Positions 730 to 64,000 of a stretch of DNA of 64,000 nt are shown here, in pieces. The translations under genes and the position numbers were made by a program. The notes below the pieces were generated by a model. The model was not told where the DNA came from, did not search any database, and saw only the letters and a program-made list of their open reading frames with translations. The first letter of the stretch is position 1, and the number at the start of each line of letters is the position of its first letter. The stretch covers positions 480,001 through 544,000 of the forward strand of contig CM000432.1 in NCBI GenBank assembly GCA_000165345.1. The letters run 5' to 3'.

Positions 730-844
730 TAACTTAAAACTAACTTATTAAGAATAAATATTTGCTAGGTAATTATTTTTCATAACAAAAAAAAATGGGC
801 GGTAATATCTAAGTGATTATAATTTTTTTGTTACAGCAAAAGAA

Positions 845-1918: not shown

Positions 1919-2322
1919 AAGCAGATTTAAGTAAAATGGCTAATTTAATTATTTTCTTATAAAGGCCTATCTTATTAGCGAAATAATATTTGTCTATATT
2001 TACTCTTTTATTGCATGCAGACCAAACCGCCTTTACATGTGCAAAGTGAAAATACGTATAAAAGAAAATTTCTTGAATTTATATATTAAAGATTAAGATT
2101 AAGTAGAAATCTTTCATTGTTAAATTTTTGCCCAATTGAGTTTTTCTCGGAAGAACTCAAGATATATCAATTTGGAATTCTATTCTAGTTGAAGAAGCCA
2201 AATAACTGAAAACAGAAATTGGTAAAAGAGGCTGAACATTTGATCAATTTGAAATAAATTGACTTGTTCAGAAATATCGTCTTTCTGAACAAATAATATT
2301 TCATGTTTAGCTATTAATAAAA

Positions 2323-3111
2323 ATGATTAAGATAATATTTATTACGCTAATATGTTTGTTAATTAAGTAAGTTAATAATTTAATTTTCCGAGTATTTAAA
2401 CATGTTCTCATTTATAGGGATACTTTTGGTTTGGAAATGCGATCAATTGGAAATTCCAAACTTGAATCGTTTTCAGTTACTTATTCCGGAAATCTTCATA
2501 AGTTAAGTGCGCATTCAAGCTTGTTTTCGAACTCACAATTTGAGTCATGCAATACTATGTGCGATGATTTTGATCCAACATGCGACTGCAACACTGCTTC
2601 TACAACAGAAACAGAAATAACTATTGATCAAGTTGAGAGTTGGATTGAAATCATTAAAAAAAATGCTGAGGCTGCTGCAAACCCTATTTTAAAGAACGAT
2701 TCTACGTCAAACACTACAGAAACAACAGATTCTAGCAATCAATATGTATGGATTGGTATTGGTGTTGGAGCCATTGTTCTTATTGGATTAATTATATTCT
2801 TCATTACAAAGTCAAGATCTAATAACAGTCAGGGTCAAGATCCCAATGCAAACTATAATATGCAGGGAGGAGCCCCAGGAATGATGCCAGGTGGAATGCC
2901 TGGTATGCCCGGTATGCCTGGAATGCCAGGTGGAATGCCAGGTGGAATGCCTGGTATGCCCGGTGGAATGCCCGGTATGCCCGGAATGCCCGGAATGCCT
3001 GGAATGCCTGGAATGCCTGGTATGCCTGGAATGCCTGGTGGTATGCCTGGAATGCCAGGCGGAATGCCTGGTGGTATGCCTGGAATGCCTGGTGGAATGC
3101 CAATGCGATAG
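2323..3111 (+). CDS. Type-I membrane protein with Cys/Thr-rich ectodomain and (GMP/GGMP)n repeat cytoplasmic tail. Two exons: 2323..2366 and 2418..3111.
   Basis: The ORF track shows only 2431..3111. Upstream exon ATG 2323 encodes [15 protein letters not shown], a signal peptide. Donor AA|GTAAGT at 2367, acceptor TTTATAG| at 2417 (51-nt intron), in frame with ...[13 protein letters not shown]. The second exon has Cys-rich [15 protein letters not shown], a T/S-rich stretch, [24 protein letters not shown], then about 30 MPG/GMPG units. Confidence 0.55.
2866..3105 (+). repeat. In-frame coding tandem repeat of 9/12-nt units (GGAATGCCTGGTATGCCC etc.) encoding (GMP)/(GGMP)n
   Basis: Direct reading of 2866-3105. 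The alternative-frame ORFs 2819..3103(-) and 2891..3133(+) are artifacts of this repeat. Confidence 0.9.
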
Positions 3112-4332: not shown

Positions 4333-4550
4333 TTGTTACACAAGCTTATATTTACAAAAAGTCTCAGTAAAATGTATAGCTAAGGTTTCATAATAGAAAG
4401 AAAGAAATCCTAGTTTTTCTTAGAATAAGCAAAGTATTATCAGATATATGATAGTAAAAATATATATTAAATAATTGTGTGCTAAACCACATGTGATCAA
4501 ATTTGCAATTCTAAAGTTTGCGCGGTATTGAAAGCAGTTAATTCTTGTAC

Positions 4551-6032: not shown

Positions 6033-6642
6033 TTCTTTGATACTAGCTTCCGGGATATGCCTCGTGTTAACCCTAAAATTATAATCTCAATATAGTTATA
6101 TGTTTCAATTCGTAAGTAATTTTACTTACAATAACTACAGATCTTACTTAATAAGTCTAATTTTTGAATATAAAATACATATTATTTTGATTGGTTGCTA
6201 ATAATAAATAATCAAGTCCAAAGATCGATAATTTAATCTTCTACCCAATTCTTCGATTTTCAATTATATTATTGTTATTCAGACAAATTCTTGAGAGTCC
6301 AAATAATTTTTGTTGAATTAACGGAATCTAAAATAAGACTTACAAAAAAATTTATTCTTTGACCGTTACCAAGCGCTACTCATTTTTACGTCTGTGTCAA
6401 TTCTGGAAGGCGGCCAATTACATGCAATATTTTATTTGTTCTAGATCAAGTTTGACAATTTTGTAAGAAAAAAAAACATGGGTTTTTAAAAGAGTAATTT
6501 AAAATATATCAAAAAGAATACATTTAAAAGCTATAATTGTTAGTTTATGAAATTGCTTTATTTGATATACTTCAAATCATTTAAAAGATTGTGAAAGTAT
6601 AAATAAATATTTACATCGTGCTAAAGCGATACATTTAAAAAA

Positions 6643-8106: not shown

Positions 8107-8555
8107 TACTAAAAGCTCACAGAAGATATTTAGTCGTCTTTTATGTAATAAATAAAGGAACATAAAATTTTGGGAGAAAATGATGGAAGTTGCTCCCAAT
8201 GATATCAGACCAGGCTTTTATATTGCCATTTTGTTAGATTGAATTTAGACTTTTATAAATAGTTTAAACATTTAGGCGGCTACTTCTTTTTGCTAAAAGC
8301 TTCATACGAAGGGAATTGTAATTTAATTCTAGTTTACAAGATTCTAATATAAAATATAGAAAATCATCTAGCTAAATAGATTTTTGGAATAAATATTGTT
8401 CAATTGTATTTGCACTTTTTGATTAACCAACAGATTTAAACTTAATTTTCTAGGCACAAGTAATTTACAAAATCAAGCAATATATTAATGATCATTTTAC
8501 TTACATGATAATTAAACAATTTTGATTAATTGAGTTTGTTTTTCTATACTTAATA

Positions 8556-10067: not shown

Positions 10068-12249
10068 TTACCTTGAATAAATACTTCTCTTGTTTTTTCT
10101 ATTAAGTTTGTGGATTTTAAGATCATCTTTGTACGCCAGTACAACTGAATCGCTATTATTATAAAAGGTAGAACAATCCTCAACTCTACTTTCAACTTCT
10201 TTAATTGAATAAGAATATAGATTACCTCTTTTTACGGCTTCAAAGTCCCAAACTATAACAAAATTATCTATGCTTGTAACGATTTTAGTTTCCGCCCAAA
10301 ATCCTTCTGGCCCTTGGCATTGGTCAAATCTGGCAGGCGTGAAGTTAACTTCTGTAATTTTGTAATGAAACAAATCTTCGGGCTTTAAACGCAGTTTCCT
10401 GGATGGAGGTTTATTCCTCAGACTTGAAACAAATCCATTTCTACCTTCAGATCCAGAGTTTTCTTCTTGCTCAGTTACTGGATATAAGTGAATACAATTT
10501 TTTGTAGTTGCGAGAATCCAATTACCATTTCTAGTCACATCTACGGATATAATTGGAGACCCAAATGAATTAAGTAGTGTCTTTGCCTTTTTAAATTCTC
10601 CATCTTTGTTCATTGTACCATCATATAATCTTAGCTCTCCTAAGTCGTTGCCAATCAATATATGTCCATCTTTATCAGTTGCCATACTACTAAAAAGAAC
10701 ATTAGACCTATATATCTTTGAAGTAAATCTGTTGGAAGACTCCTTGATCCTACTATCCATTATAAACATTGCGCTGTTACTTAATCCCAAAAACGTTGGA
10801 ACTGGAGTGGATTGAGAATCTTTGCTTGACAGTCCTAAACAAGAAATTGGAAGTCCATTTGCATCCCAACGACGTAAAATTTTTTCATTTGTCAAATCCA
10901 TTTGATAAACATAATTAGGATCTGTTTCCGACAGAAACAACATTTGGGTTTCACAGTTGTGTAGTTGGCCTCCTACAGGAAGTACACTTTGATTTTCGAA
11001 TTCAATATTTTTAATTACAGAAATATTTCTTGCAGGAGTTCCACTAATATTATAATTGCTTCCTTCCGATTCTGTGTTTTTAAATACAGCAATTTCTGAC
11101 TTCCCATTACGCCTATTTGCCCTACCAACAAAAGTATTTTCATGTCCTATTAACATATATTTGTGATTCAAATACAATTCGTTATTTTTTGTTACTCTCC
11201 TAGGAGTTGAATAACATTCATTTTCTACTTCATCAGCTGAACAAGTGTGGTCACTTTCATTATCGCTGCATTCCCACATAATCTGATCTTTGCTGGGATT
11301 ATAGTTATCATCCAGGTCCATTTTATAACTCACTCCATAGTCTGAAACTTCGTTTTTAATGATTTCAGAAATACTTTTTCTTGGCCTTTTTTCTTCCGGA
11401 TTTACTTGATCTATGTGCTCTAAAAGTTTAGCAATAAATCCATCAATTTCTTCCTCTGAGCTATAGAAGGATTTGTTATCTTCGCCTTCATTCTGTATTC
11501 TTTTAAAATGAATTCGATATCTTTTTCTTATTTCGTCCTGATTAAACCCATAAAATTCAACAACTCTTTCACTTAATTTAGGCAAAAAAAGAATGTTATC
11601 CCCAATTATACTGGCAAACAGTACTTCGCCTTTTCCTGATAAATTCTTAATAGAAAAAATTGTGTCTTTGAAGTCTTTACTCGACAAAAGCTCGCAAATA
11701 GCATTTAGGCTTATTGGCTTCCATTCTTCAGCGTTAAAGCTCAAAATAGAATCTCTTTTCTTTTTAGTTATTGTATCATCGTGTTCATACAATTCTATTG
11801 GGATTTGATCTTTTATACTGCAGAGAGAACGAAGAGACAATGTTATATTATACGATAAGAATGAAAGAATATGTAGATCCATATTTTCAAACTCGAAAAC
11901 GAATTTTACCAAATCTTGTCCTGACCTCGTAATAATTATAAATTCACCCTGTTTATTACTATGAAAGTAATGTATATTCTTAAAATTGAATATATAATTT
12001 TCTTTTTGATCATCATTTGGATTTACACCGCTCATGATTATGTCATCTTCAATATTCATGCAGCAGGATTTAAGTACAAGCTGGTATGTCTTTCCGTTAC
12101 ATTTATACAGAGACCCTAAACAATAGTATTTAGTTCGTTTGATACTAGTTTAAACTGTCTAACTTACCATGATAGCTTTTACTAATTTTAGGGGAATCAC
12201 CAGCACTCGCAGAAAATCCAGTAAATATTCTTCGTATTAAACCACTCAT
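10068..12249 (-). CDS. VID27-like protein (PH-like N-terminus plus WD40-like C-terminus). Two exons: 10068..12115 and 12168..12249.
   Basis: Main ORF 10068..12059. Upstream exon ATG 12249..12247 encodes MSGLIRRIFTGFSASAGDSPKISKSYH. Donor G|GTAAGT, 52-nt intron 12116..12167, acceptor TTGTTTAG|GG, reading in frame into ...SLYKCNGKTYQLVLKSCCMNIEDD. C-terminal repeats resemble VID27. Confidence 0.55.
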
Positions 12250-12506
12250 ATGTATTCGTTGTTTTTGGCATTAAATTAATTTTCACTAAGATAATATTTT
12301 ATGCTCCAAGGAGATTAATTATTATTCTATTAACAATTTGCTATAAAATGTACCGAGGGCGGGGATAATTCATGTTTTTTTTAATTAGATCTCTTAGAAG
12401 TTCTCGAAAGTAACTGAAAGTGAATAATTAATTTTTATAAAATGAACTTAATTGGAATAGTTTAAATATTAGAAAAATAATAATTGTTTTGCGGGCAGAA
12501 AAAAAG

Positions 12507-12591
12507 TGCGTAGAATGGGATTCGAACCCATGAGAGCATACGCTCATTAGATCTTGAGTCTAACGCCTTAGACCAACTCGGCCATCCACGC
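12507..12591 (-). tRNA. tRNA-Leu (anticodon CAA), type II, intronless
   Basis: Minus-strand read GCGTGGATGGCCGAGTTGGTCTAAGGCGTTAGACTCAAGATCTAATGAGCGTATGCTCTCATGGGTTCGAATCCCATTCTACGCA. Acceptor stem pairs 7/7 (one G-U). D-arm GCCGAGTTGGTCTAAGGC, anticodon stem TTAGA/TCTAA with loop CTCAAGA, long variable arm, T-loop GGTTCGAATCC. Followed by TTTTTTT, a Pol III terminator, at 12499-12506. Confidence 0.8.
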
Positions 12592-12808
12592 GCCGCTACT
12601 ACCGACCGTTTATTGTAAAATATATTCAATAACAAGAAACTAAAAATCAGCCAAATTGACGAGGGGGCGTCAATAAAAGTAAATAGTGGTTTAAGTGAAG
12701 AAATGAATTAAATTGACCTAGGAGTACTATATACCTGTAATATATGTTAATTTTAGTTACATTTTGAGAAGTGGCAAATAAGGAGCTATTTATTTGGTAA
12801 AAAAAACA

Positions 12809-13329
12809 TTAAATAAAGTCTCCATACCTGCCTCTTAATTGTCTAGCTAATCTTATATCTCTTGGTAGTAATGTAACTCTTTTGGAGTGCAATGTGCATA
12901 AATATGCATCCTCGAATAACCCTTGTAAAAATGCTTCTGCTGCGCATTGAATAGCATGCAAAGCCTCTGCATTCCATCTCCACATTTCGCCATGTGGCAC
13001 AAATTTTAATGTAACCTCTCTAACAACGCGAGCAAAAGGTAGTTTAGCAATAAGTAAATCAGTTGAGGCTTGATATTTTCTAATTTCTCTTAATGCAACC
13101 GTTCCTTAAATAAATATAATTTGAACACAGAATAAATTATTTAGCTTACCTGGTCTTCTTCTATATCTCCTTGGGCTAATGGGGCTACTACTAATTGCTC
13201 TATTATTCGTTGATTGGTGAAGAATAGGAGTCTAGAGAACTAATGAATATGTTGCATAAATGGAATTAATCAACTTACTTTTGACGGATATTTTGCAATT
13301 CGCTTGCTTGAAGTTTTAGAACGAGCCAT
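12809..13329 (-). CDS. Centromeric histone H3 variant (CenH3/CENP-A-like). Three exons: 12809..13104, 13150..13231 and 13279..13329.
   Basis: Exon 1 encodes [17 protein letters not shown] (H3-like tail), donor |GTAAGTTG. Exon 2 ...PRRYRRRPG. Exon 3 [30 protein letters not shown]...[37 protein letters not shown]. Introns are 47 and 45 nt. The histone fold is clearly H3. The divergent tail, 2-aa longer loop 1 ([13 protein letters not shown]) and C-terminal extension are CenH3 hallmarks. The ORF track only saw the last 63 aa. Confidence 0.7.
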
Positions 13330-13693
13330 AATCAATGAACCAATAGAAATTACTATTGAAGCCGTTAAAACAACGACTGCAATAGTAATAATTGTTAATT
13401 ATCAGCTCTAGACTAATTATTTAGTATTACTTGAAATATCTATTTATTAATTCCAGAAAAATATATCGTTTTCCAAATGAAGCCCGTTTCATGCATGAAT
13501 AATATCTTAATTAAACAACCAAAATATTCAAAAAAAATTATTCTTTTTAAGAAAGAAATTAAGTTTAATATCTAATTTTTTTTTATAAAAAAACTTTCAC
13601 ATGTATAAATTTATTTTATATTCTTTGCAAATTATTTGGCTTTGTCGTCTGTCCATCTAGTTAGTATATATTTCTTTTAAATGTGGGTAATGA

Positions 13694-13708
13694 TTTGGCG
13701 CTGGCGGC
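13694..13708. promoter_or_regulatory. Canonical E2F-type site TTTGGCGC followed by TGGCGGC, in the CenH3/ATG5 divergent intergenic region
   Basis: Direct read gatTTGGCGCtggcggcac. GC-rich islet in AT-rich DNA. Matches E2F consensus TTTSGCGC. Confidence 0.4.
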
Positions 13709-13745
13709 ACTGCTGCTTTTTTTTAAGCTTAAACTTCTAACATTT

Positions 13746-14718
13746 ATGTTAAAAATAATAGAAAGCAAATCACATGCTCTTACACACAAGATAATACACT
13801 CTGGCTTGTTGCTTATTTCAATAAGTATTGATCACGGAGAAGAAAGTAAATTCTCAAAGTGGAAATGTGCTCCTAAACTTTACTTTATTATCCCAAGAAT
13901 AGGTTATTTATTATCTTTGATTGACACTATTCAGGACTATTACGCTTCTATTGATAAGGAATTTTATAATTTAATTGAAAACACTTTCTCTTGGTTTGAG
14001 TACGATGGTTTGGTCATAAATAGGTAATTTATTTTTTAATAATTACATTAAATTGTATCCTTTCTAAGCCAATTCCCTGTAGGAATATTATTTGATAAGT
14101 ATCACAAAAGCAATGATAGCGTTTCATTCAACATTAAATTGGTTCTTCAATACAATAATAGTAATAAAAATAATCGGAAAGCTCCTTTTTTTTCTGAAGA
14201 AAACTCAGTATTTAATAATAACTTGATTAAGATTATTACAAATAACATTAAGCTATCTCAAACTGTAATGTTTGGAGATTGCAGAAAACTTCAAATGATG
14301 AATAAGAAAGATTACAATGAACTATTTGATTCTATATACTCTCTCTCCAAGACAACAGGTGAATACGAGAAGATAATTCATCGATTGTTCGGGTCAGCAA
14401 ATGAAATATATTTCAATACTAAGTAAGTTCTTCAGTATTTAAGCTTTAATAATTTAAAAAAAAAAAATTAGGAATATTCCGGTAAAAATTCACGTTAAGA
14501 ACGAATCATTTTTGAGATCATTCAAAAAAGATATTAACAATCAACTAATTGAAATAAAAGATATTCTAAACCATTTCAAATTTGAAACTAATGTGAGCTT
14601 AGATTCAAATAAAGTAATTTTTCATGGGGTCGCACTACCATTAAATACGCCATTAATATTTTTAACAATATTTTGCCCTTATATTGATGGGATTGTTCAA
14701 TTAGTTATTAAAGATTAA
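13746..14718 (+). CDS. ATG5: Autophagy protein ATG5. Three exons: 13746..14023, 14069..14422 and 14472..14718.
   Basis: Three track ORFs (13683.., 14139.., 14512..) are exons of one gene. PKLYFIIPRIGYL...SWFEYDG matches EPYYLLLPRVSYL...IWFEYEG. PVGILFD matches PIGLLFD. KNIPVKIHV matches FRYIPFRIY. VIFHGVALPLNTPL matches VMIHGIEPMLETPL. Donors AG|GTAATT and AA|GTAAGT, introns 45 and 49 nt. Start could instead be 13683. Confidence 0.75.
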
Positions 14719-15099: not shown

Positions 15100-15184
15100 T
15101 TTAAAAATTTCTAATTAAAAAAAATAGCAATTTCCCTACATCCACTGTTGGCGCGTAAATATTCTTAGTCTAAATGATAGACAA

Positions 15185-18357: not shown

Positions 18358-18381
18358 TAAAACCGCCTTGGCTTTTGCGCC
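18358..18381. promoter_or_regulatory. AAAACCGCC ... TTTTGCGCC paired GC-islets between the PCF11-like and XRCC3-like divergent genes
   Basis: Direct read aataaaaccgccttggcttttgcgccaatc. TTTTGCGCC is close to E2F TTTSGCGC. Confidence 0.35.
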
Positions 18382-18537: not shown

Positions 18538-19599
18538 ATGATTAAAGGAATTTCTGCATTAGAGCTATTACACCGTGAAACAGCATCTACAAATCGAATA
18601 AAAACTCTTTGTGGTACCCTTGATAAAATGCTTTGTATGTTTGAAAACAAACACTTTCCTATTGATTTCTTTTATTTTAAATAGGTGGAGGAATTATTAT
18701 TGGCAAAGGAATTATTGAATTATGCGGTGTTCCAGGAAGTGGAAAAACTCTCTTGTGCAAAATATTAGCTTTAAATATTCAAATCCCAAAAAGTATTGGT
18801 GGGCCAGGCTTGAATGCAATATATATAGGTAAGTCTGTTCTTATTTTCCATAGATCAATTTATTCCACTAAGATTCAGAAGGTGGTTTTAGTGATAATAG
18901 GCTAAGAGAAATCTCAAAAAGTACACTCAATTATATTAATGCGAAAAAAAAAACAGAAGATATGACCTGTGAGAATTTGATTAAAAACATTAAATATATA
19001 AGAATTTTTGATTTGGAAGAATTAATTAATGTATTAACTTTACTGCCTTCTGTAAGTTTAAAGCAAAGTTTTGAGTTATTTACCATTTTTACTAGATGTG
19101 CAAGAATAATAATATTGGCATAATAATAATAGATTCAATAAGTATGCTCATCCGTATTTGTAATTTAAGTAAGTATTGTGCTCATATTATTTTAAATACT
19201 TTATTTTTAGATAACCAACCGTATAGATTAAAAATGCAACAAAAGATTGCAAAAACTTTAGAAAACATGTCCAAAGAATACTCTCTTTCAATAATCGTCA
19301 CTAATCACATGACAAAAAAATATTTCGATGATCAAAAAAAAAAAGATCAATTCGCAAATGTTGCTACAGGAAAAAAAAATTTAGAGCCTTCTTTGGGCTT
19401 ATCTTGGAATTCACTGATTTGTGAAAGGCTAATTTTGAAACGTGAAAAGGATCTTAAGGCTGATAGTGAAGCTTTAAATACCATTTCCGTAACCAACAGT
19501 TTTGGTGAAGTTGCATTTTTTAAGGTAATTTATTCCTAAAATTAAAATAATATTAACTCTTGTCATTAGATCAATTTAAATGGGATTCAAGATTATTAA
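18538..19599 (+). CDS. Rad51 paralog, XRCC3-like. Six exons: 18538..18634, 18685..18828, 18873..19030 (or ..19052), 19096..19168, 19211..19524 and 19570..19599.
   Basis: Walker A GGIIIGKGIIELCGVPGSGKTLLCKILA. AIYI|DSEGGFSDNRLREI (compare YIDTEGTFRPERL). Walker B IGIIIIDSISMLIR. GLSWNSLICERLILKR matches XRCC3 GITWANQLLVRLLADR. Terminal exon INLNGIQDY matches Rad51 AITAGGIADAKD. Donors are mostly GTAAGT, introns 42-65 nt. The exon 3/4 junction is ambiguous (see findings). Confidence 0.6.
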
Positions 19600-19681
19600 A
19601 AAAATTTATTAAAGTAGATATTTAACTCATTTCTATTTATAATATTTTTAAATAGCGACCTAAGAAAAACTCCTTTTCTTC

Positions 19682-19700
19682 TGCATGCATGCATTTTTAG
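19682..19700. promoter_or_regulatory. TGCATGCATGCA + TTTTTAG element about 60 bp upstream of the cyclin ORF
   Basis: Direct read ctgcatgcatgcatttttag. Shares the 14-mer GCATGCATTTTTAG with 30298-30311. Confidence 0.4.
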
Positions 19701-19747
19701 AATTCGAAAATATTTTGTTTGTACAATTTTTAACTATTATTTAAAAC

Positions 19748-21109
19748 TTGAATACTTCTTCTCAATTCATCATTTTAAGATATATAATTAATAAAATGAC
19801 AATATTATTTAAAAAACTTAAAGAAAATGAAACATTTAAACATTTCTTTCGTCAAGTCTCAAAATACTTGGAAGGTAACTCAGATGAAAGCAAAGAAAAT
19901 AAAAGTAATATCTCTAAATGTAACTTAAAGACAAATTATCAATTAATAAAAAGAGAAAATGGTAAAGAAAATAATTATATTAGTGTCAATAACACTGAGT
20001 TTTCATCTGGAATTTTTGAATTTAGTAATAACTTCGAAAAAAGTGAATATAATGAATCAAAACCAGTTAAAAAATTCAAATTTAACATTGGGCAGATTTT
20101 CACAAATAGGATTCTTTCTAAACAAAATGATTATAATATGAAAAGGATTTATACATATTATAGAGAATGTTACAAAAAACAAATTGAGCCAGGTAAAACC
20201 TTAATAGATTTTAGAAGAGAGATAATCGGAGAAATGTCAGAAATTATTTGGAAATATCACCTTAATGAAGAAATACTTTTCCTTACAGTACATTTCATGG
20301 ATAATGTTATTATTAAAGATCAAATAGAGGAAGAAAACTCATTAGAAAGATTAAGATATTTGGGCTTCACATGTCTATATATCACTATTAAAATTGAAAG
20401 AGTGGTGAATTTTAACTTTAAAGAAATTATTAAAAAGCTTTCTTTAAATTCTATTAAATTAATTAGTATGGAGAAATATGTGTTAAATCAACTTACATTT
20501 AAGTTGAACCCTATTTCATCACTCTTTCTTCTGCAATTTCAAATGGGAATTATAATGGAAAGCTATTTAAAGGATATTATTGGGGTAGAAAATATTGACT
20601 ATTCAAGGAAAAACTCAGAAAATAAATATTTTAATTATAGTTATTCAGATAAATATAATAGCCAGATTGTTCAAAGTTATAATTCAAATAGAGTTGGAAA
20701 CGAAGATCAATTGGAGAACAGTTCATCACTATTAATCAATGTATTGAATATGAAAAGTAGCAAAGGGATAAATAAAGTATTGGAATATTTCATCAGCTGT
20801 TATTTATTGGAGATATGCCTCTATGATATTGAAATATTAAAATATTCTCCTTTATCTCAAGCAGTTTCTGCACTATTCATTGCGAAAGAATGTTTAGGAG
20901 CAAGAAAGGATAGCATTGAGGAAGAATGTATTAACGAATATTTTAACATGGAAGTATTGATCGAGGATTATGTGTACAGAAATATTAATGCGATTAAAAG
21001 AACATTAAAATATCCCTACATTAAAAAAATTTCTACAACAAAGAAATACCTAACGAATGAATATATGAACGCAGCTAATTATGTTTTGAGGCTTATATAC
21101 CCAAAATAA
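19748..21109 (+). CDS. Cyclin (cyclin-box fold protein)
   Basis: Cyclin box region IIGEMSEIIWKYHLNEEILFLTVHFMDNVI...LERLRYLGFTCLYITIKIE...YVLNQLTFKL matches MRAILIDWLVEVHEEYKL.ETLYLTVNYIDRFLS...LQLVGVTAMLIASKYEE. The true start may be an internal Met (for example 19796). Confidence 0.65.
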   Translation: MNTSSQFIILRYIINKMTILFKKLKENETFKHFFRQVSKYLEGNSDESKENKSNISKCNLKTNYQLIKRENGKENNYISVNNTEFSSGIFEFSNNFEKSEYNESKPVKKFKFNIGQIFTNRILSKQNDYNMKRIYTYYRECYKKQIEPGKTLIDFRREIIGEMSEIIWKYHLNEEILFLTVHFMDNVIIKDQIEEENSLERLRYLGFTCLYITIKIERVVNFNFKEIIKKLSLNSIKLISMEKYVLNQLTFKLNPISSLFLLQFQMGIIMESYLKDIIGVENIDYSRKNSENKYFNYSYSDKYNSQIVQSYNSNRVGNEDQLENSSSLLINVLNMKSSKGINKVLEYFISCYLLEICLYDIEILKYSPLSQAVSALFIAKECLGARKDSIEEECINEYFNMEVLIEDYVYRNINAIKRTLKYPYIKKISTTKKYLTNEYMNAANYVLRLIYPK

Positions 21110-22238: not shown

Positions 22239-22572
22239 CAGTAAAAAATAGATTTATTTCAGGAAAGTTGCTTTTGAACTTTAAAGGTAACTCAGTGATT
22301 TGCCGCCGCAACCCCTCAACAGTGCTATCTTATTTAAAACAAAAACTTAAGCATTATAAACTGATAGAGTGCAATTAGTATTGAGTGAACGACTAAAAAA
22401 CTATATTATATATGTTTCCGCACCAGTAAGATCGTATATTACTAATGAAATTTAAAGTTACTACTTAGTGATATCAAACATAAAAATTTTAAACATGTTC
22501 TAGCTAGAAAACATTTGCCATATAATTTACGATAAATTATCGCTAATACTACACAATTAATTTTTTATGTAG

Positions 22573-24324
22573 TCAGTTGGTGATTGCTTCATACTTGTTT
22601 TTTGCAGCAACTGTAAAATGATGATTAGGGCCTGTTAATATACTGAGATAGCACCATGTGTCGTAGTAATATCTTTGTATTGCAGAAATTTCTTGATTGG
22701 TTTTGGATTTACCTTTATGACGTTCATCTTGCAATATGCTAAGAATGTCCCCTAGTTCCTCAGTTATCCATGCCAATGTATAGGTACAATCTGGGAGGAC
22801 ATTTCTTACGAAATTCAGCCTATTATATAGACAAGAAAGTGCAAATGAAAACTGCTGGGACTCTTTGTATGCTTCAAAAAGCATAGTATCTAATTCGTAC
22901 ATAATCCAGTGCTGAGTAAACACTTTTTGAGCCTCTTGATATACTGCTTCAACATCCTCAACATCATTCTTATCTGTCTCTTCCAGTCTTGCAACATACT
23001 GTGATTCAAGATCAGTATAGCTATCAATAATTTCCCTATCAGGCTGAGATCTGCAGACGGAACATCTACTTGATCTTGTTACTCCATTTTCATCCTCCTT
23101 GAAAAACATGCTTCCAACTCCGCAAGAGGCGCACTTCAACCCTCTAGAAAGATCTGTGGGATTGTTACATCTCTCGCATTGGCAATAAAATAACCAATTG
23201 CTAAGTAATTCTCTTCTAGTTTTAGAACATTTAAATAAATCATCATCAGATATGTAAGATATTGTTATTTCGTCTCCAACTTCTAAACGCGTCTTTGCTC
23301 TTAAAACAAATGTATTATCTACGCCATAGTGCCAGCAACAGCTTGCTCCGCAGTTATGAGCCATCATACTGATTACATTATATAAAACTATTCCATTATT
23401 TGAAGTATGATTGAATGAATTAAACCTCCAAGCATTCAAGGTTCTTTCATATAAATGCGGATCAACATCTATCCCAGTATTTTCTATAATTTTTTGAACA
23501 TCATAACTTGGTTCGGCAGAAGGATCTGGGACCCATTTATCTAAACAAATAGCTTTATCTTCTTCTTCAAGCATTGTTAATGTACACAAAGCTGCTACGT
23601 GCCACAGAGGAGGAAGAGTAAAAGTCTCTTTTGAATTCATATCTTCTAAGAACTCTGATAGTTCTGGAGCAAGTTCTGGAGTGACTACAAGCAACGGGCT
23701 TTCTGCAAAAATAATATCGCCGGGATTAAAACACTTTCGTGCATATAAGCATCTTCCTTTGCTTTCAGTGTATCTCACCTCAACACTCTCATGAATGCTC
23801 TCCAGATCCCATGGTTGAATTAGTTCATCAGGAACAACGTCTGCCTCGTCAATATTATGTTCATCGGTTGCAATCCCTCCTTCTTCGTCAACAGCCAACT
23901 CTTCTAATTCTGCATCATCATCGTTAAACCCAAATTCCCTGGCTTCAACTCCTTCGTTAACACTAAATGCTTCTTTGAAGTGATATCTAATCATTTCTGG
24001 GTAAATAGAGACGTCATCGTTTTTGTTTTTCATCCTGTAGTAACTCTCATCTTCATTATTATCAAATGCTCGATCAAACGACTCATCCTCATCTACTTCT
24101 CCTTCCTCTCCTTCCTCTCCTTCCTCTTCTTCAACTTCATCTTCCAAGTCTTCTTCATGATATTCATATCCATCCTCTTCATCATAATCCGAGTCAGCAT
24201 CTTGTTCTTTTTTTATTAAAGTTTTTTTGTATTCTGCAGTAGATAAAGTTACCCATCTATCATCTCCAAAATCAACTACTGGCCTCAACTTTGTACCTGT
24301 ATTATTTTCATAATATGACGACAT
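22573..24324 (-). CDS. SET-domain protein lysine methyltransferase with acidic N-terminal region and Cys-rich post-SET
   Basis: SET core VEVRYTESKGRCLYARKCFNPGDIIFAESPLL ... MMAHNCGASCCWHYG ... EVGDEITISY ... post-SET CQCERC. The D/E-rich N-terminus gives the ORF a GAA/GAG codon repeat around 24060-24190. Confidence 0.7.
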   Translation of the reverse strand: MSSYYENNTGTKLRPVVDFGDDRWVTLSTAEYKKTLIKKEQDADSDYDEEDGYEYHEEDLEDEVEEEEGEEGEEGEVDEDESFDRAFDNNEDESYYRMKNKNDDVSIYPEMIRYHFKEAFSVNEGVEAREFGFNDDDAELEELAVDEEGGIATDEHNIDEADVVPDELIQPWDLESIHESVEVRYTESKGRCLYARKCFNPGDIIFAESPLLVVTPELAPELSEFLEDMNSKETFTLPPLWHVAALCTLTMLEEEDKAICLDKWVPDPSAEPSYDVQKIIENTGIDVDPHLYERTLNAWRFNSFNHTSNNGIVLYNVISMMAHNCGASCCWHYGVDNTFVLRAKTRLEVGDEITISYISDDDLFKCSKTRRELLSNWLFYCQCERCNNPTDLSRGLKCASCGVGSMFFKEDENGVTRSSRCSVCRSQPDREIIDSYTDLESQYVARLEETDKNDVEDVEAVYQEAQKVFTQHWIMYELDTMLFEAYKESQQFSFALSCLYNRLNFVRNVLPDCTYTLAWITEELGDILSILQDERHKGKSKTNQEISAIQRYYYDTWCYLSILTGPNHHFTVAAKNKYEAITN

Positions 24325-25021
24325 AATTCAATTTTAATTATAAATTGAGATAATTGCTCACTACTGCTTTCTTAGTGCACTTTTGCAAACTATTGTTCGT
24401 TTCCTTTGACGGGTACAATCGATTAATTCCTCTAAATAATTTAACTAATAGCAATAAATCCATATATTTTATATTGTAAGAAAGAATACTTTCCAGGTAT
24501 TATCTAGTTAGTATTATGCCTTTCGATCAAATAACCTGTCATTTTATACTTTATTAAATGTACTTGTTATGCACCTTTTTTGCCGCCTGTGAGTTTATTG
24601 CCCGCTGAAAAAAAGACGGGAAGAGCATGCTTGATCATTTTATCCAAATAGCTATCCTATAAACGTTTTTGTGTGATCAACCAAAACTTTATCAGAGTTT
24701 GTTTTTAATGTGTGTGCGTTTTTAGGGCTTAACAAACATTAATTAATAGGAATGATTTTAGAAAATTTGTGTTGATTTAGGCATCACTATTGCTCTTTAA
24801 TAATCGATTATAATTTATAGAGCGGCGCGCGATAATTTGTTTGTAAAATATTCCTCTATTTATATAACTTGTAAGGTTAGAATAAAAATATAATTTGCAT
24901 TAATTATTTATATCTTTAAAGTATATCAAGTTCGATTAAATAAAAGGTGATAATTTAATTGTTTTTTAATACTTATTTCCACTTGATATTGCTGGTAAAT
25001 TGAATTCATATCGGAAACTAA

Positions 25022-25360
25022 ATGGCAAAAAAAAACGATAAGAATAAGAAAAAAAGATACATTGAGTGGTTGAAAGAAGTGGAGAAGGACAGTAGAAAAA
25101 GAGCAGAAGTGAATGCCATGAAAAGACAAAATATGAAAAGCAAAACTGAGAATATAATTAATGGCCAAAAAGATGTATGCATGAATATAGTTAAGGTAAA
25201 GAAGAAGAAGGTTAAATTAGACAGGAAAGGCCAAAAAAGACTAAATAAACTATCTGGTAAGTTTCTTTTTATTAATCTCTCTTGATTCAATCAAATTAAT
25301 TCGTGAATTAATGTCTAATTTTAAGGTATTAAGAAGAGTAATACCTCAATGGATTTATAA
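25022..25360 (+). CDS. Small basic (K/R-rich) protein, possibly nucleolar. Putative two exons: 25022..25256 and 25326..25360.
   Basis: Track ORF 25022..25285. A G|GTAAGT donor at 25257 and TTTTAAG| acceptor at 25325 would replace the C-terminus with GIKKSNTSMDL. Family not recognised, and the splice is speculative. Confidence 0.3.
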
Positions 25361-25734
25361 GGTAGCTTTTTATATAATAGCAAAATTATGTAGCTTAACT
25401 CCAAATAATAGTGATTTTTAATAAATTATTTCATTTAATTATTTTTTTGATCGCTTTTATTTTAGTTACCCTCTGTGGGGGAAAAAATTAATAAGTGGAG
25501 CCAAAAAATATTGGTAACTGAAGAAAATTTTTCTACTCTAGAAAGTGATTTCATTGAGTTTCATACTTTGTATTATTGAATTTTGCTTCAGATGGTGATC
25601 ATTATATTGTTTTAATATTGCCATTAAGTCTCAAATTAAGTAGTAGTTAATTTAAATGAATGTACATGTGTACATTTATATGCATATATATAGATAAAAT
25701 ATAAGAGAATTAAATAAATATTTTAATAAAGAGA

Positions 25735-27812: not shown

Positions 27813-28102
27813 TTTTCTAACTCCTCTCCCAACCCTATTTCTATCTTGAATTGATTCAAACATTAAAAGAATTAAAATAAATTGATTTTTTGCTTGAAAC
27901 CTCAATATGAATTTCTGATTTCAAAGAATCAAGTTGATTCTTTTGTATTTCAATATTTAAAAAATAATTCTATCCACTTAAAAAACTACGCCCGCATATC
28001 GATTTTATTTGTCATTTGCATGTAAAGTAAACTTACAAATAAGGACACAAAAAATAAATATATGAAATTATTTAAGAATTAATAGCAATATTGAAAGTAA
28101 TA

Positions 28103-30293: not shown

Positions 30294-30314
30294 AGTGCAT
30301 GCATTTTTAGGCGG
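30294..30314. promoter_or_regulatory. Composite promoter element AGTGCATGCATT + TTTTAGGCGG, with a second TTTGCATGC at 30323, in the cathepsin C / PX-gene divergent region
   Basis: Direct read agtgcatgcatttttaggcggtatatctctttgcatgc. TGCATGCA is the classic apicomplexan AP2-type octamer. The GC-islet resembles E2F-like sites. Confidence 0.45.
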
Positions 30315-30762
30315 TATATCTCTTTGCATGCTTGTATTAAAAAAAAAAAAGAGAGAAAAAATTTACCTGTAAAAAGTACATTTAAAAATTAATAACAATT
30401 TACTTCCAAAAACTATTAAAATTTGATTCATAACTTAGAAATAATGCTAATGCCAATATAAAATCTTATATTCAAATATATAAAGTAAAATGTAAGGATA
30501 TTAACTTATTAAATATATTTTTACTATTTTAAACTAGTATTTAAAAAAAAATTAATAAAAAAATTAACATTGGCGCCTTTACATTGAGGGGTATCAAATT
30601 GTATTCGGATTTTAAAGCACAGTTAGAAAACAAACAATAGTAAATTAATAAAAAAAAACACTTTTAGAGAATATTATTTCAGTATTATAATTGGGAATTA
30701 ATTAACTTCATTTAAAAAGTTTCATTCAACATTAATTTGTTAATTGCATATGAAACTTTAAA

Positions 30763-33422: not shown

Positions 33423-33644
33423 AAAAATTTTGAATGGCGCCTATGTTAACAAAAAAATCATGGCAAGTGCAGAATAATAGCTCAATTATTAAATACCATG
33501 GCTCACTACTATGCCTGAATCAAATGATCTGTCTGCTAATTTAGTTTAACTACTCTATTTTATTCTATGAACCCCACCAAATTTTCGATACTTAAATTCA
33601 AATACACATGCACCCTGCACATGTTAGCGCCAACAGAATGTTGA

Positions 33645-37330: not shown

Positions 37331-37340
37331 TGCGCCCGCA
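37331..37340. promoter_or_regulatory. GC-islet TGCGCCCGCA about 220 bp upstream of the Cdt1-like gene (E2F-like candidate)
   Basis: Direct read aataaatgcgcccgcattagc in otherwise more than 75% AT intergenic DNA. Confidence 0.3.
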
Positions 37341-38556: not shown

Positions 38557-39007
38557 TTTTTTACTTAATATTGAGCCTGAAAAACTTCTAATGATATTAC
38601 TAATGCGGGTAAAGATTAAAAGAAGAATAATAAAAATATTTAAAATGTATAAATAGATGTCAATATGCGCAATAGAGTAAAAGCAACGAGCTCTAAGCAT
38701 TTTCCTATTTGATTGCATATTGTGAATAGCACTGATCATAATTACTATAAAAAAAAATAAGATAAAATATTATTTTTTTCAATATTTACTTTTACGGAGA
38801 AAGAAAATTTGAATAATATGGACTAGAATGACAATATTTATAAAGTAGCAGAGTAATCATTCGATAATAAATCATCTTTTACAATTTTAAATAGTTAAGT
38901 ATTATTTGGAAAATATTGCGCCAAATAATTGTTTATACGATGACTTGAAATAAAAAGAAAGTTTGCAAATAGCATTTTCATTATATTTATAAGACATTAT
39001 AAGTTCT

Positions 39008-44745: not shown

Positions 44746-45135
44746 TCTTCAAGATTTAAAATAAATTATGGTAAAATCTATGAAGTTCCATTAATTTAAT
44801 TGTTATCATTTAACTTTTTTTAGTGATTTTAATGCAATGAATTGTTGCGCCTTTATTGGTGGGGTCAAAGATGTTAAAAATATATATAACGTGAAATAAT
44901 TCAGTTAAAATTATCAATTAAGAATCGATAAATGCTAATAATAATTAATTACTTTATTATATTAGTTTTATCAGACTATTAAAGCGATGTTATTTTCTTC
45001 CTAAAAATTTTTATGAGTTAAAGAATATTTAATCCAAATTTGGTACTTAAAGACCCAATTTAGTGATTAAATTCATAAACTTTAAATTTATTTCAAGATT
45101 TTTAATATATATAATACTAAAATCTAACTTAATAC

Positions 45136-46899: not shown

Positions 46900-46943
46900 A
46901 GTGCATGCATTCTGGGGAAATTAATTTAATCATTTAGGCGGCT
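46900..46943. promoter_or_regulatory. Same composite element AGTGCATGCATT ... CATTTAGGCGGCT, about 115 bp upstream of the aspartic protease ATG
   Basis: Exact 12-mer agtgcatgcatt identical to 30294-30305. catttaggcggct is identical to 8269-8281. Confidence 0.45.
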
Positions 46944-50720: not shown

Positions 50721-50955
50721 TATAAAATTACCCTCTTATTCCAAAGCAGGTAAAAATACAAAAATAATTATTTACATGCAACCCAAATTATTCTTTAGAT
50801 AAACCAAAACTTCCAATATTAGTTTTAATACGTGCTTATATATTACTATATTAGTTTACGATAACTTTCTAACTCTAAATTAATTTACATTTTAATTTTA
50901 CCAGTGATTAATAACCTGAGTTTCTTCATTGTAAATATTACACATGTTTGTGGGG

Positions 50956-50967
50956 TTTTTAGCGCCG
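50956..50967. promoter_or_regulatory. TTTTTAGCGCCG GC-islet about 240 bp upstream of SMC2 (E2F-like candidate)
   Basis: Direct read ggggtttttagcgccgatt immediately before the (AT)n microsatellite. Confidence 0.3.
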
Positions 50968-54367: not shown

Positions 54368-54862
54368 TATTTTGGTGTTTAATTATTATATCTATTATAA
54401 TTTTTTGCAACGTATAAGTTCTAAAGTTTATTTGCTGCAATTATAGCGGTATAAAAAATTCTTGAAAATATTTCGATTTCATTCAAAAATTATAATAGTA
54501 ATTTTGTGCTAAAAAAATTGCTGCTTTGGGATAAGCTTAATTGCGATTTTTTGTAGTAAAATTTATTCACTACTTGCCATAAATCAAAATACAATATAAT
54601 TCATAATAGAAATAAATACGAACTAAATTGAACTTCTATTCATTTACTTTAGTATAATATTAATTTCGTTTAGTATATATAATATATACATATATATATT
54701 CATATATAATAGCAGTCTTCATTATTTCGCCCCACACTTGCCGCTTTAAAAAATTGCTATTTTGCTTTTGGCTATGAAATAATAAGAATGAAAGATAGTA
54801 GATTCTTCAACTCTTCATGAAATTTATTCTACGATAATAATAGTAATGTAAATATATGAGAT

Positions 54863-60548: not shown

Positions 60549-60838
60549 CTTAAAATTTAGAAATTTTACATTTTTAAACTAAAAATGCCTGGTTTTTCAA
60601 AATATAAGTTAATTCAAAGTATTTTCAATTTTTTCAGCTTTTTCTTTTATTGTTTTTTAATTCGAATCTTAAAGCGCAGTGTTATTCTCGACCCTCATTA
60701 ATAATTAATGCAAAATATTCTAAAGAATCAAAATTAAAGTAATAATATATAAATATATATATTAATTACAAAATTTTATTATGAAAGGTACATTCATTAT
60801 TAAGCGAACCTATTCAAAAAGAAAGCAGATACTGAATA

Positions 60839-63613: not shown

Positions 63614-64000
63614 AGTTAATGCTTTACAATTTAACAATTATTTGATACTTGTGGAGACTGTCAGAGCCTTGTGCCTGTTCAATCAATTTAACCACAAGCA
63701 AAAGTTATTCAAGATAAATAAATCTTCAGCTTGGATTGAAATAAATTCCCAAAGATTGGTCTGCGAGACACCCGTCAAAGACAGCCAATTAAAATTTAGC
63801 ACCTGAAGAGACGGCGGGAAATTGCTTAATAAAAGATTATACAAATTTTTGTTCAGAACAAACACTAATGAAAGAAAATATGATTGTATCAAGTGACTTA
63901 TAGTTGCGTTGTAATTCAACAACTTGGATTTCAAAGTAGTAATTTTTGCATCTAATTCAATTAAATTTGTTAAATTTCGGTAGATTTTGTATTCGCTTTA

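What the first reader, a model, noticed from the sequence alone, without database searches (positions are those of the whole stretch)
13694..13708. E2F-type GC-islets upstream of replication/chromosome-cycle genes
Short GC-rich elements matching or close to E2F TTTSGCGC stand out in AT-rich intergenic DNA, specifically next to cell-cycle genes:
- TTTGGCGCTGGCGGC (13694-13708) in the CenH3/ATG5 divergent region;
- TGCGCCCGCA (37331-37340) upstream of Cdt1-like;
- TTTTTAGCGCCG (50956-50967) upstream of SMC2;
- AAAACCGCC...TTTTGCGCC (18358-18381) between the XRCC3-like and PCF11-like genes;
- GCGGCGCGCG (24823-24832) upstream of the SET gene and the small basic protein;
- TGGGCGG (796-802) upstream of UBA5.

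Cdt1, SMC2, histone H3 variants and Rad51 paralogs are canonical E2F targets in other eukaryotes. The pattern argues for an E2F/DP-driven S-phase programme. Such a programme is reported for Cryptosporidium and is absent in Plasmodium.
Basis: partly seen in the sequence, partly recalled or inferred. Interest (0 to 1): 0.55.

Follow-up and report, generated by a model that had tools for sequence, protein, structure and literature searches.

The report
Conserved E2F-like promoter islets in Cryptosporidium
The short GC-rich "E2F-like" elements are real and conserved across Cryptosporidium species, but they sit in front of almost every gene in this window, not only cell-cycle genes, and this motif is already described as the commonest upstream motif in C. 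parvum.

Summary
The window is C. parvum chromosome 4, about 480-544 kb. All six quoted strings are present, two of them one base off. These lie in 22 of 25 intergenic regions that contain a gene 5' end. None lie in 3'-3' spacers. Density is 3.4 per kb in promoter-type DNA against 0.76 per kb in coding DNA.

An unbiased 6-mer scan recovers GGCGGC, TGGCGC and AGGCGG, along with the known TGCATG and GTGGGG motifs. In syntenic loci from up to six other Cryptosporidium species, an islet sits at nearly the same offset in each orthologous promoter (61 of 78 comparisons; 23.5 expected). This includes the focal site and the other five listed sites.

The claimed specificity for replication and chromosome-cycle genes fails: 5 of 6 such genes have an islet, against 26 of 29 other genes. 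The cyclin gene has none. The focal site is 38-53 bp from the ATG5 start codon and 366 bp from CenH3.

Published work already names this E2F-like motif as the most abundant upstream and open-chromatin motif in C. parvum, which encodes two E2F and two DP proteins. Binding by E2F/DP remains untested. Verdict: real and functional, but already known and not S-phase-specific.

The parts
13694..13708 (.). Focal tandem E2F-like site TTTGGCGC-T-GGCGGC in the CenH3/ATG5 divergent region. It is 38-53 bp upstream of the ATG5 ATG (13747) and 366 bp from the CenH3 ATG (13328, minus strand).
   Evidence: exact TTTSGCGC. It is conserved as GGCGCTGGCG[G/C] in C. canis and C. felis, AGCGCCGGCGGC in C. ubiquitum, GGCGCC in C. 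bovis and GGCGCTAGCGG in C. andersoni.
796..802 (.). TGGGCGG islet in the 115-bp RNase PH/UBA5 divergent promoter.
   Evidence: TGGGCGG is identical in C. ubiquitum and C. canis; C. felis has GCGGG nearby.
2027..2031 (.). AAACCGCCTTT islet upstream of the unknown 224-aa gene.
   Evidence: The block ATGCA..AAACCGCCTTTACATGTGCA is conserved in C. ubiquitum, C. canis and C. felis, with islet conservation 0.93 against 0.43 for the region.
4520..4525 (.). TTTGCGCGG islet upstream of the TBC RabGAP gene.
   Evidence: It is conserved in C. ubiquitum and C. canis. In C. felis and C. bovis it is displaced as GGCGG and GGGGCGGG.
6409..6415 (.). GGCGGCC islet in the Nop52/ISP1-like divergent promoter, followed by a conserved ACATGCA.
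8275..8280 (.). TTAGGCGGC islet upstream of Cdc73.
   Evidence: GGCGG is at the same offset in C. ubiquitum, C. canis and C. bovis.
12357..12364 (.). GGGCGGGG islet 108 bp upstream of the true VID27 ATG (12249, minus strand; exon 1 found by tblastn).
   Evidence: conserved in C. ubiquitum and C. felis.
15149..15156 (.). TGGCGCGT islet upstream of a small gene (about 94 aa, minus strand, annotated in C. ubiquitum and C. andersoni), just 3' of PCF11-like.
   Evidence: an islet at the same offset in all five other species.
18358..18381 (.). Paired islets AAAACCGCC..TTTTGCGCC in the PCF11-like/Rad51-paralog (XRCC3-like) divergent promoter, 156-170 bp from the Rad51-paralog ATG (18538).
   Evidence: The pair is conserved in C. 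ubiquitum, C. bovis and C. xiaoi at the same distance from the ATG, and as a single site in C. felis and C. andersoni.
22299..22309 (.). TTTGCCGCCGC, an exact TTTSSCGC match, upstream of the DHHC palmitoyltransferase.
   Evidence: GCCGCC sits at the same offset in C. xiaoi.
24579..24605 (.). TTTGCCGCC plus GCCCGC islets upstream of SET/AKMT (cgd4_2090).
   Evidence: GCACCTTTTTTGCCGCCTGT is identical in C. xiaoi.
24822..24831 (.). GCGGCGCGCG islet between SET/AKMT and the small basic protein gene.
   Evidence: C. xiaoi has CGGCGG at the same distance from PIGA (917 against 913 bp).
27989..27995 (.). CGCCCGC islet upstream of a small intron-containing coiled-coil gene.
   Evidence: The C. xiaoi counterpart is GCCGCCG.
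30310..30314 (.). TGCATGCATTTTTAGGCGG composite in the cathepsin C/PX divergent region.
   Evidence: It is conserved in C. xiaoi at an identical offset.
30571..30578 (.). TGGCGCCT palindromic site 185 bp upstream of the PX gene.
   Evidence: TGGCGCCT is conserved in C. xiaoi.
33435..33442 (.). TGGCGCCT site 70 bp upstream of the TBC2 gene.
   Evidence: C. ubiquitum and C. canis have GGCGCCC and C. felis has GCGCC at a similar offset.
33627..33631 (.). CTGCACATGTTAGCGCCAAC composite 46 bp upstream of the unknown 388-aa gene.
   Evidence: The block is conserved in all four other species, with islet conservation 0.80.
37331..37340 (.). TGCGCCCGCA islet 222 bp upstream of Cdt1.
   Evidence: The core (T)TCCCGCA is conserved in C. 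ubiquitum, C. canis and C. felis, and GCCCGCC in C. bovis, all at offsets 215-241.
38918..38925 (-). TTTGGCGC, an exact TTTSGCGC match, in the RNase H2/unknown-776 divergent promoter.
   Evidence: TGCGCCAA is conserved in C. ubiquitum and C. canis, and GCGCC sits at the matching offset in C. felis.
44847..44851 (.). TTGCGCC..TTGGTGGG composite 101 bp upstream of the Dpy19 C-mannosyltransferase.
   Evidence: conserved in C. ubiquitum, C. canis and C. felis.
46937..46942 (.). TTAGGCGGC islet 148 bp upstream of the aspartyl protease.
50950..50967 (.). GTGGGGTTTTTAGCGCCG, a G-box plus E2F-like composite in the SMC/adaptin divergent promoter (241 bp from SMC, 265 bp from adaptin).
   Evidence: GTGGGGTTTT..GCGCC is conserved in C. 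ubiquitum, C. canis and C. felis.
54728..54744 (.). CGCCCC and GCCGC islets in the PDCD5/unknown-551 divergent promoter.
   Evidence: Cross-species conservation was not examined.
63812..63821 (-). TTTCCCGCCG, an exact TTTSSCGC match, 198 bp upstream of ribosomal protein P0.
   Evidence: This fits the published E2F-like motif upstream of ribosomal protein genes (PMC3734150).

Best explanation
The finding is one instance of a general promoter element in Cryptosporidium. Almost every gene 5' region in this chromosome-4 segment carries a 5-10 bp GC islet with a GGCG[C/G] or CCCGC core, often reading (T/A)(T/A)GGCGC or TTTSSCGC. Unidirectional promoters usually have one islet. Divergent promoters have one to three. 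The islets lie about 40-450 bp from the start codons (median about 240 bp). Purifying selection has kept each one in place across the genus.

The most likely mechanism is that the islets are docking sites for the E2F/DP winged-helix heterodimers that Cryptosporidium alone among apicomplexans has retained. On this view, binding opens or marks the promoter, often for both genes of a divergent pair. Neighbouring TGCATGCA/CACATG (ApiAP2) and GTGGGG (G-box) motifs would then supply stage specificity.

The element therefore acts as a near-universal promoter module, not a switch reserved for S-phase genes.

Shown here: the islets are real, they are restricted to promoter-type intergenic DNA, they are conserved in position, and they lack functional specificity. 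Taken from the literature: E2F and DP genes exist, and the motif dominates ATAC-seq peaks. Inferred: E2F/DP is the factor that binds, and it activates transcription.
For: An unbiased 6-mer scan of intergenic DNA finds GGCGGC (6 observed, 0.26 expected, 0 in coding), AGGCGG and TGCGCC-type words, and TGGCGC (7 observed, 0.72 expected), plus the known TGCATG and GTGGGG motifs.

32 islets lie in 22 of 25 promoter-type intergenic regions. None lie in 1.6 kb of 3'-3' spacers. Density is 3.38 per kb against 0.76 per kb in coding DNA (p = 1.6e-9).

Syntenic loci were fetched from C. ubiquitum, C. canis, C. felis, C. bovis, C. andersoni and C. xiaoi. An islet sits at nearly the same offset in each orthologous region, in 61 of 78 comparisons against 23.5 expected under random placement. 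Each species also shows a 3- to 7-fold excess of islets over dinucleotide shuffles.

Islet columns are more conserved than other intergenic columns (0.564 against 0.447, p = 7e-6).

The focal site is conserved in five other species.

Literature: the E2F-like motif [A/T][C/G]GCGC[G/C][A/T] and GGCGGG is the most over-represented upstream motif (PMC3734150). It lies upstream of 161 of 200 expression clusters (PMC4117751). [quoted passage not shown] There are two E2F genes (cgd1_1560/1570, cgd6_1430) and two DP genes (cgd7_3650, cgd8_1850) (PMC12246861). Protein-binding microarrays show C. parvum AP2 domains binding TGCAT, CACACA and the G-box, not this motif (PMC4117751).
Against: I found no direct evidence in the searchable library (ChIP, CUT&RUN, EMSA or PBM) that Cryptosporidium E2F/DP binds these sites.

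The flanks are only weakly T/A-biased beyond background, so many islets match only the GC core of the E2F consensus. Only 5 sites in the window are exact TTTSSCGC matches, which is not significant for the window as a whole.

Some islets (TGGGCGG, GGGCGGGG) fit an Sp1-type GC box equally well.

Three promoter-type regions have no islet: those upstream of cyclin and PIGA, and the divergent region between the unknown 1321-aa gene and DFP.

The gene map is my own, built from ORFs, Pfam and ortholog annotation. No transcription start site data were available.
Confidence: 0.65

Rival explanations
1. The islets are E2F sites that mark a dedicated S-phase, replication and chromosome-cycle regulon (Cdt1, SMC, CenH3, the Rad51 paralog), as in animals and plants.
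For: Cdt1, SMC, the Rad51 paralog, RNase H2 and (at a distance) CenH3 each have an islet in their 5' region. Earlier work found a G-rich motif, later called E2F-like, upstream of C. parvum DNA-replication genes (PMC1779779, as reinterpreted in PMC3734150).
Against: There is no specificity in this window. Five of 6 cell-cycle genes have an islet against 26 of 29 others (Fisher p = 0.55). For exact TTTSSCGC the figures are 2 of 6 against 6 of 29. The cyclin gene has no islet in any species. The focal site is proximal to ATG5, not CenH3. Genome-wide, the motif precedes 161 of 200 clusters, which peak at every time point, and it also precedes ribosomal and oocyst-wall protein genes (PMC3734150, PMC4117751). 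Four window genes fall in four different expression clusters: 51, 66, 74 and 119. No Rb ortholog is reported (PMC3734150).
Confidence: 0.1
2. The islets are functional promoter elements but are not read by E2F/DP. They might be bound by another GC-box factor, such as one of the C2H2 zinc-finger proteins. Alternatively, they might act structurally, as a short GC island in 75-80% AT DNA that positions the nucleosome-free region or the start site.
For: Position and presence are conserved while the exact sequence drifts between GGCGC, GGCGG, GCGGG and CCCGC. Several islets are GGGCGG-type. Flank preferences are weak. No binding data exist. C. parvum encodes several C2H2 zinc-finger proteins (PMC12246861).
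Against: The published de novo motifs from upstream regions and ATAC peaks match E2F1 and E2F6 matrices best (bioRxiv 10.1101/2025.01.17.633476). The palindromic forms TGGCGCCT and GGCGCC and the TTTGGCGC and TTTCCCGC forms are classic E2F/DP sites. The lineage that retained E2F/DP is the one that shows this motif.
Confidence: 0.22
3. The islets are chance GC-rich words or a compositional artefact, picked out by eye from AT-rich DNA.
For: Strict TTTSSCGC is not significantly enriched over the whole window (5 observed, 2.4 expected).
Against: Dinucleotide-preserving shuffles never reach the observed number of islet-bearing regions (14 observed, maximum 9). No islet lies in a 3'-3' spacer. Position is conserved in up to six other species.
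Confidence: 0.02

Closest known systems
C. parvum 'E2F-like' upstream motif family: [C/G]GCGC[G/C], GGCGGG and TGGCGCCA (Bankier 2003; Mullapudi 2007; Oberstaller 2013, PMC3734150; Xiao et al. 2025, bioRxiv 10.1101/2025.01.17.633476)
   Same: Same organism, same core sequences and same location in upstream regions. The motif is equally pervasive, typically occurs once per promoter or open-chromatin peak, and is shared by bidirectional promoters. It occurs upstream of ribosomal protein genes; here, that gene is P0.
   Different: Nothing essential differs. This window is simply a local sample of that family. The analysis here adds gene-by-gene positional conservation across seven Cryptosporidium species, which the papers I read did not report.
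Canonical E2F/DP sites (TTTSSCGC) of animals and plants, which control G1/S genes
   Same: The GC core is the same, with exact TTTGGCGC, TTTGCCGC and TTTCCCGC forms. The sites are promoter-proximal and work in either orientation. They are present at Cdt1, SMC and Rad51-family genes.
   Different: The sites are not restricted to cell-cycle genes. No Rb pocket protein is reported in apicomplexans (PMC3734150). Many sites keep only the GGCG[C/G] core without the T-run.
Sp1/KLF GC box (GGGCGG) of housekeeping promoters
   Same: It is a short GC element at many unrelated promoters. TGGGCGG (796) and GGGCGGGG (12357) fit it exactly.
   Different: Most islets are GGCGC/GCGCC or palindromic GGCGCC, which is not an Sp1 site. 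No Sp1 ortholog was tested or is known to me in Cryptosporidium.
ApiAP2 motifs of apicomplexan promoters (TGCATGCA, GTGGGG G-box)
   Same: They are short, conserved words in the same intergenic regions, and often lie within 5-20 bp of the islets.
   Different: The sequences are distinct. Protein-binding microarrays assign them to AP2 domains, none of which binds GGCGC (PMC4117751).

Membership tests
E2F/DP binding site (cis-element) | Sequence matches TTTSSCGC or the symmetric SGCGCS core | tested here: met
The focal site TTTGGCGC is an exact match. The others carry GGCG[C/G], GCGCC or CCCGC cores with 1-2 mismatches in the T-run.
E2F/DP binding site (cis-element) | Located in promoter or 5' regulatory DNA | tested here: met
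   All 32 non-coding islets lie in intergenic regions that contain a gene 5' end. None lie in 3'-3' spacers. No transcription start site data were available.
E2F/DP binding site (cis-element) | Site maintained by selection (phylogenetic footprint) | tested here: met
   Position matches in 61 of 78 comparisons against 23.5 expected. Islet columns are more conserved than other intergenic columns (p = 7e-6).
E2F/DP binding site (cis-element) | Cognate E2F and DP proteins are encoded by the organism | not testable with these tools
   The genes are not in this window, and the genome could not be searched. The literature reports cgd1_1560/1570 and cgd6_1430 (E2F) and cgd7_3650 and cgd8_1850 (DP) (PMC3734150; PMC12246861).
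E2F/DP binding site (cis-element) | Physical occupancy or binding by E2F/DP | not testable with these tools
   No ChIP, EMSA or PBM data for Cryptosporidium E2F/DP turned up in the library. The review states that most regulators lack validation (PMC12246861).
   Five of 6 against 26 of 29 genes have an islet (p = 0.55). At most one mismatch to TTTSSCGC: 4 of 6 against 18 of 29 (p = 1.0). The cyclin gene has none. The sample is small, one 64-kb window.
   Only four window genes could be found in the truncated supplement of PMC3734150. They lie in four different clusters: 51, 66, 74 and 119. The paper reports that motif-bearing clusters peak at all time points.
Sp1-type GC box | GGGCGG core | tested here: not met
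   Only 2 or 3 of 32 islets contain GGGCGG (797, 12357). The majority are GGCGC/GCGCC or GGCGGC.
Structured RNA or known RNA family at the focal locus | Rfam match or covarying structure | tested here: not met
   Only tRNA-Leu reaches the gathering score in the window. Nothing scores better than E = 0.2 in 13300-13800. No compensatory pairs were found.

The most novel reading that the evidence does not exclude
In Cryptosporidium, E2F/DP has been repurposed from a cell-cycle switch into the general promoter-defining factor. On this reading, essentially one position-conserved GGCG[C/G] islet licenses each promoter or divergent promoter pair across the whole genus, from intestinal to gastric species. 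Genes that lack an islet in every species, such as the cyclin downstream of the Rad51 paralog, would be transcribed as downstream members of polycistrons. Islet presence would then predict transcription-unit boundaries from sequence alone.
Probability: 0.4. Interest if true: 0.45.

Novelty: already known. Interest (0 to 1): 0.15.

Why it matters
The finding matters little as a discovery. The E2F-like motif, its abundance upstream of C. parvum genes, and the retention of E2F/DP in this genus alone among apicomplexans have been published since 2003-2013 and were reinforced by ATAC-seq in 2025.

The check is useful in two ways. It corrects the idea that these sites mark an S-phase regulon. It also shows, gene by gene, that the sites are held in place across up to seven species. 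That supports treating them as real promoter landmarks when designing reporter constructs, annotating transcription units or planning E2F/DP ChIP experiments in a parasite where regulators remain unvalidated.

Tried and rejected
1. Strict consensus counting over the whole window. TTTSSCGC gives 5 hits against 2.4 expected, which is not significant. The signal lies in the location of the hits and in their conservation, so I switched to compartment-specific and cross-species tests.

2. Curated gene calls for the window through the look-up of encoding contigs on a window protein. This returned only ORF-style calls from a read-assembly contig. I used the eukaryotic annotation of the orthologous loci instead, plus tblastn for the first exon of VID27.

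3. A hidden RNA gene at the focal locus. There is no Rfam hit and no covariation. Two possible upstream ORFs that I read directly from the sequence (13602-13661 and 13681-13740) are not conserved in C. ubiquitum in the alignment: one meets an immediate stop there and the other is shifted by an indel.

4. A T-rich or A-rich flank signature for the islets. It is only weakly above background.

5. A consistent orientation of the islets relative to the downstream gene. From reading, no consistent orientation is apparent.

6. Supplementary tables. I looked for the polycistron list of Xiao et al. and the small-RNA list of Li et al.; neither is held. Templeton 2004 is also not held.

7. Independent confirmation of the E2F/DP genes by sequence search. 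This was not possible, because the genes lie on other chromosomes and no searchable collection holds the Cryptosporidium genome.

8. Column-identity conservation underestimates the footprint, because MAFFT often misaligns 5-bp islets in AT-rich DNA. I therefore added an offset-based test.

Full report
**Identity of the window.** The DNA is about 30% GC. ORFs with Pfam hits give a compact, almost intron-free gene map. The Cdt1-like protein is identical to one encoded on 1.1-Mb chromosome records of three NCBI assemblies. The 583-aa SET protein at 22573-24324 (minus strand) matches the published cgd4_2090, CpAKMT, in length, strand and span: chromosome 4, 502,573-504,324 (PMC9487757). This places the window at C. 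parvum chromosome 4, about 480-544 kb. Gene identifiers from the Oberstaller supplement agree: cgd4_2040 is the RPR/C2H2 (PCF11-like) gene, cgd4_2160 is RNase H2 and cgd4_2210 is adaptin.

They confirm a 142-aa histone H3 variant (CenH3, two introns, ATG at 13328 on the minus strand), ATG5, a Rad51-family paralog, PCF11-like, a cyclin, Cdt1 and an SMC protein. They also show a small gene between ATG5 and PCF11-like. In addition, 62681-63613 (minus strand) encodes ribosomal protein P0. VID27 has an upstream first exon starting at 12249.

**Checking the observation.** All six quoted strings are present, two of them one base off. Only the focal TTTGGCGC matches TTTSGCGC exactly. The one other exact match in the window, at 38918-38925 between RNase H2 and an unknown gene, was not listed.

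I then asked without prior assumptions which 6-mers are over-represented in the 12 kb of intergenic DNA, relative to dinucleotide-preserving shuffles. Apart from TATATA, the top words are:
- GGCGGC (6 observed, 0.26 expected, none in 51 kb of coding DNA)
- TGCATG
- AGGCGG
- TGGCGC (7 observed, 0.72 expected)
- GTGGGG
- GCGGGC

These are exactly the E2F-like, AP2_1 and G-box families published for C. parvum.

I defined an islet as a run of at least 5 G/C bases that contains GCG or CGC. The window then has 32 non-coding islets. All 32 lie in intergenic regions that contain at least one gene 5' end, and 22 of 25 such regions have one. None lies in the 1.6 kb of 3'-3' spacers. Density is 3.38 per kb against 0.76 per kb in the more GC-rich coding DNA (p = 1.6e-9). 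Unidirectional promoters typically have exactly one islet; divergent promoters have one to three.

The canonical TTTSSCGC is not significantly enriched over the window as a whole (5 observed, 2.4 expected). All five copies are nevertheless intergenic.

**Cross-species test.** Using VID27, Dpy19 and PIGA orthologues, I fetched fully syntenic loci from C. ubiquitum, C. canis, C. felis, C. bovis, C. andersoni and C. xiaoi.

In 15 of 16 orthologous intergenic regions, every species (two exceptions: C. bovis upstream of the aspartyl protease, C. felis upstream of Cdc73) has an islet at nearly the same offset. The offsets below are listed in the order C. parvum, C. ubiquitum, C. canis, C. felis, C. 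bovis:
- SMC/adaptin: 242, 243, 221, 197, 245
- Cdt1: 223, 233, 215, 221, 241
- Dpy19: 102, 102, 99, 100, 165

The sixteenth region, upstream of the cyclin, has no islet in any species.

Each species shows the same excess over shuffles. In C. parvum, 14 of 15 regions have an islet, against a shuffle mean of 3.5 and a maximum of 9. Positional matches number 61 of 78 against 23.5 expected under random placement. Islet columns are more conserved than other intergenic columns (0.564 against 0.447, p = 7e-6). This holds despite frequent misalignment of such short words.

The focal site reads as follows in the other species:
- C. canis and C. felis: GGCGCTGGCG[G/C]
- C. ubiquitum: AGCGCCGGCGGC
- C. 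bovis: GGCGCC
- C. andersoni: GGCGCTAGCGG

The PCF11/Rad51-paralog pair, the UBA5 TGGGCGG, the Cdt1 CCCGC core, the SMC GTGGGGTTTT..GCGCC block and the SET-upstream sites are all conserved as well. The elements are therefore real and under selection.

**Testing the interpretation.** In this window it fails.
- Five of 6 such genes (CenH3, the Rad51 paralog, Cdt1, RNase H2 and SMC, but not the cyclin) have an islet upstream, against 26 of 29 other genes (Fisher p = 0.55).
- For exact TTTSSCGC matches the figures are 2 of 6 against 6 of 29.
- The other islet-bearing genes include UBA5, two RabGAPs, Nop52, Cdc73, VID27, a DHHC enzyme, cathepsin C, a PX protein, Dpy19, an aspartyl protease, adaptin, PDCD5 and ribosomal protein P0.
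- The focal site lies 38-53 bp from the ATG5 start codon and 366 bp from that of CenH3. The element nearer to CenH3 is a conserved TGCATGCA.
- The 'SET gene' is the apical lysine methyltransferase, not a chromatin-cycle enzyme.

With six genes the test has little power. It agrees, however, with published genome-wide data. The motif lies upstream of 161 of 200 expression clusters (PMC4117751), and these clusters peak at every time point (PMC3734150). It also lies upstream of ribosomal and oocyst-wall protein genes (PMC3734150). [quoted passage not shown]

**Mechanism.** The best-supported reading is a near-universal promoter element read by E2F/DP. The literature reports two E2F and two DP genes in C. 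parvum, none in other apicomplexans, and no Rb ortholog (PMC3734150; PMC12246861). Protein-binding microarrays assign TGCAT, CACACA and the G-box to AP2 domains, but not this motif.

Binding by E2F/DP is still inferred. I found no ChIP, EMSA or PBM data. Flank preferences are weak, and a few islets are GGGCGG-type. I therefore keep a rival in which another factor, or a structural role, reads the islets at about 0.2.

Chance is excluded by the shuffles and by conservation. An RNA-gene explanation for the focal locus is also excluded: only the tRNA scores in Rfam, and no covarying structure was found.

**Comparison and novelty.** This is a local sample of the published C. parvum E2F-like motif family, so the finding is already known. 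It works like canonical E2F sites in sequence and promoter location. It does not behave like the animal or plant G1/S regulon, because it lacks target specificity.

The only increment here is the gene-by-gene positional conservation across seven species, and the observation that islet-less genes are islet-less in all species. The most novel reading still open is that E2F/DP is the general promoter-licensing factor of the genus, and that islet presence predicts transcription-unit boundaries. The 2013-2025 papers already suggest this in outline.

**Verdict.** Novelty: already known. Interest: low.

Noticed in passing
window 13624-13692: A highly conserved block lies just upstream of the focal site: TTTGCAAATTATTTGGCTTTGTCGTCTGTCCATCTAGTTA ... 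TAAATGTGGGTAAT. The 20-mer GTCGTCTGTCCATCTAGTTA (13644-13663) is unique in the window. It is identical, apart from two C/T positions, in C. ubiquitum, C. canis, C. felis and C. bovis, about 80 bp upstream of ATG5. There is no Rfam hit, no covarying structure and no conserved upstream ORF. Its function is unknown. It may be a promoter or 5' UTR element, and it is better conserved than the E2F-like site itself.
   Followed up: partly
window 50950-50967; 33613-33634; 2013-2041; 30296-30314; 6409-6427; 44845-44863: E2F-like islets are often paired within 5-20 bp with conserved CATG-type words (TGCATGCA, CACATGT, ACATGCA) or G-box words (GTGGGG, TGGTGGG). Examples are GTGGGGTTTTTAGCGCC, CTGCACATGTTAGCGCCAAC and TGCATGCATTTTTAGGCGG. 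The whole composite is conserved across species. This suggests fixed E2F plus ApiAP2 modules.
   Followed up: partly
window 19540-21109: The 256-bp region upstream of the cyclin gene has no GC islet in C. parvum, C. ubiquitum, C. canis or C. felis. C. bovis and C. xiaoi annotations fuse the cyclin with the upstream Rad51 paralog into one 692-aa product. The pair may be a dicistronic transcript of the kind reported by Xiao et al. 2025. The published polycistron list was not available.
   Followed up: partly
window 12506-12591 (minus strand): A tRNA-Leu(CAA) gene lies between VID27 and CenH3. The GC runs at 12491-12496 and 12589-12596 flank or overlap it, so they should not be counted as promoter islets.
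   Followed up: yes
window 13486-13497: TTTCATGCATG, a near-match to the ApiAP2 'AP2_1' motif TGCATGCA, lies about 160 bp upstream of the CenH3 ATG. It is conserved in C. ubiquitum and C. canis. It is a more proximal candidate regulator of CenH3 than the E2F-like site.
   Followed up: partly
window 60549-60838 and 25286-25734: Two promoter-type intergenic regions lack any GGCG-type islet: the divergent region between the unknown 1321-aa gene and DFP, and the region upstream of PIGA. The PIGA region has a G-box-like GTGGGGG at 25475-25481 instead.
   Followed up: no
window 2907-2993: Five copies of GCCCGG lie within about 90 bp inside the unknown 224-aa ORF. This is a short coding repeat in a gene with no Pfam match.
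   Followed up: no
window 12060-12249: The mechanical ORF for VID27 (663 aa) misses a first exon. The C. hominis 710-aa protein aligns to 12249-12148 and then to 12116 onward. The true ATG is therefore at 12249, followed by a short intron.
   Followed up: yes
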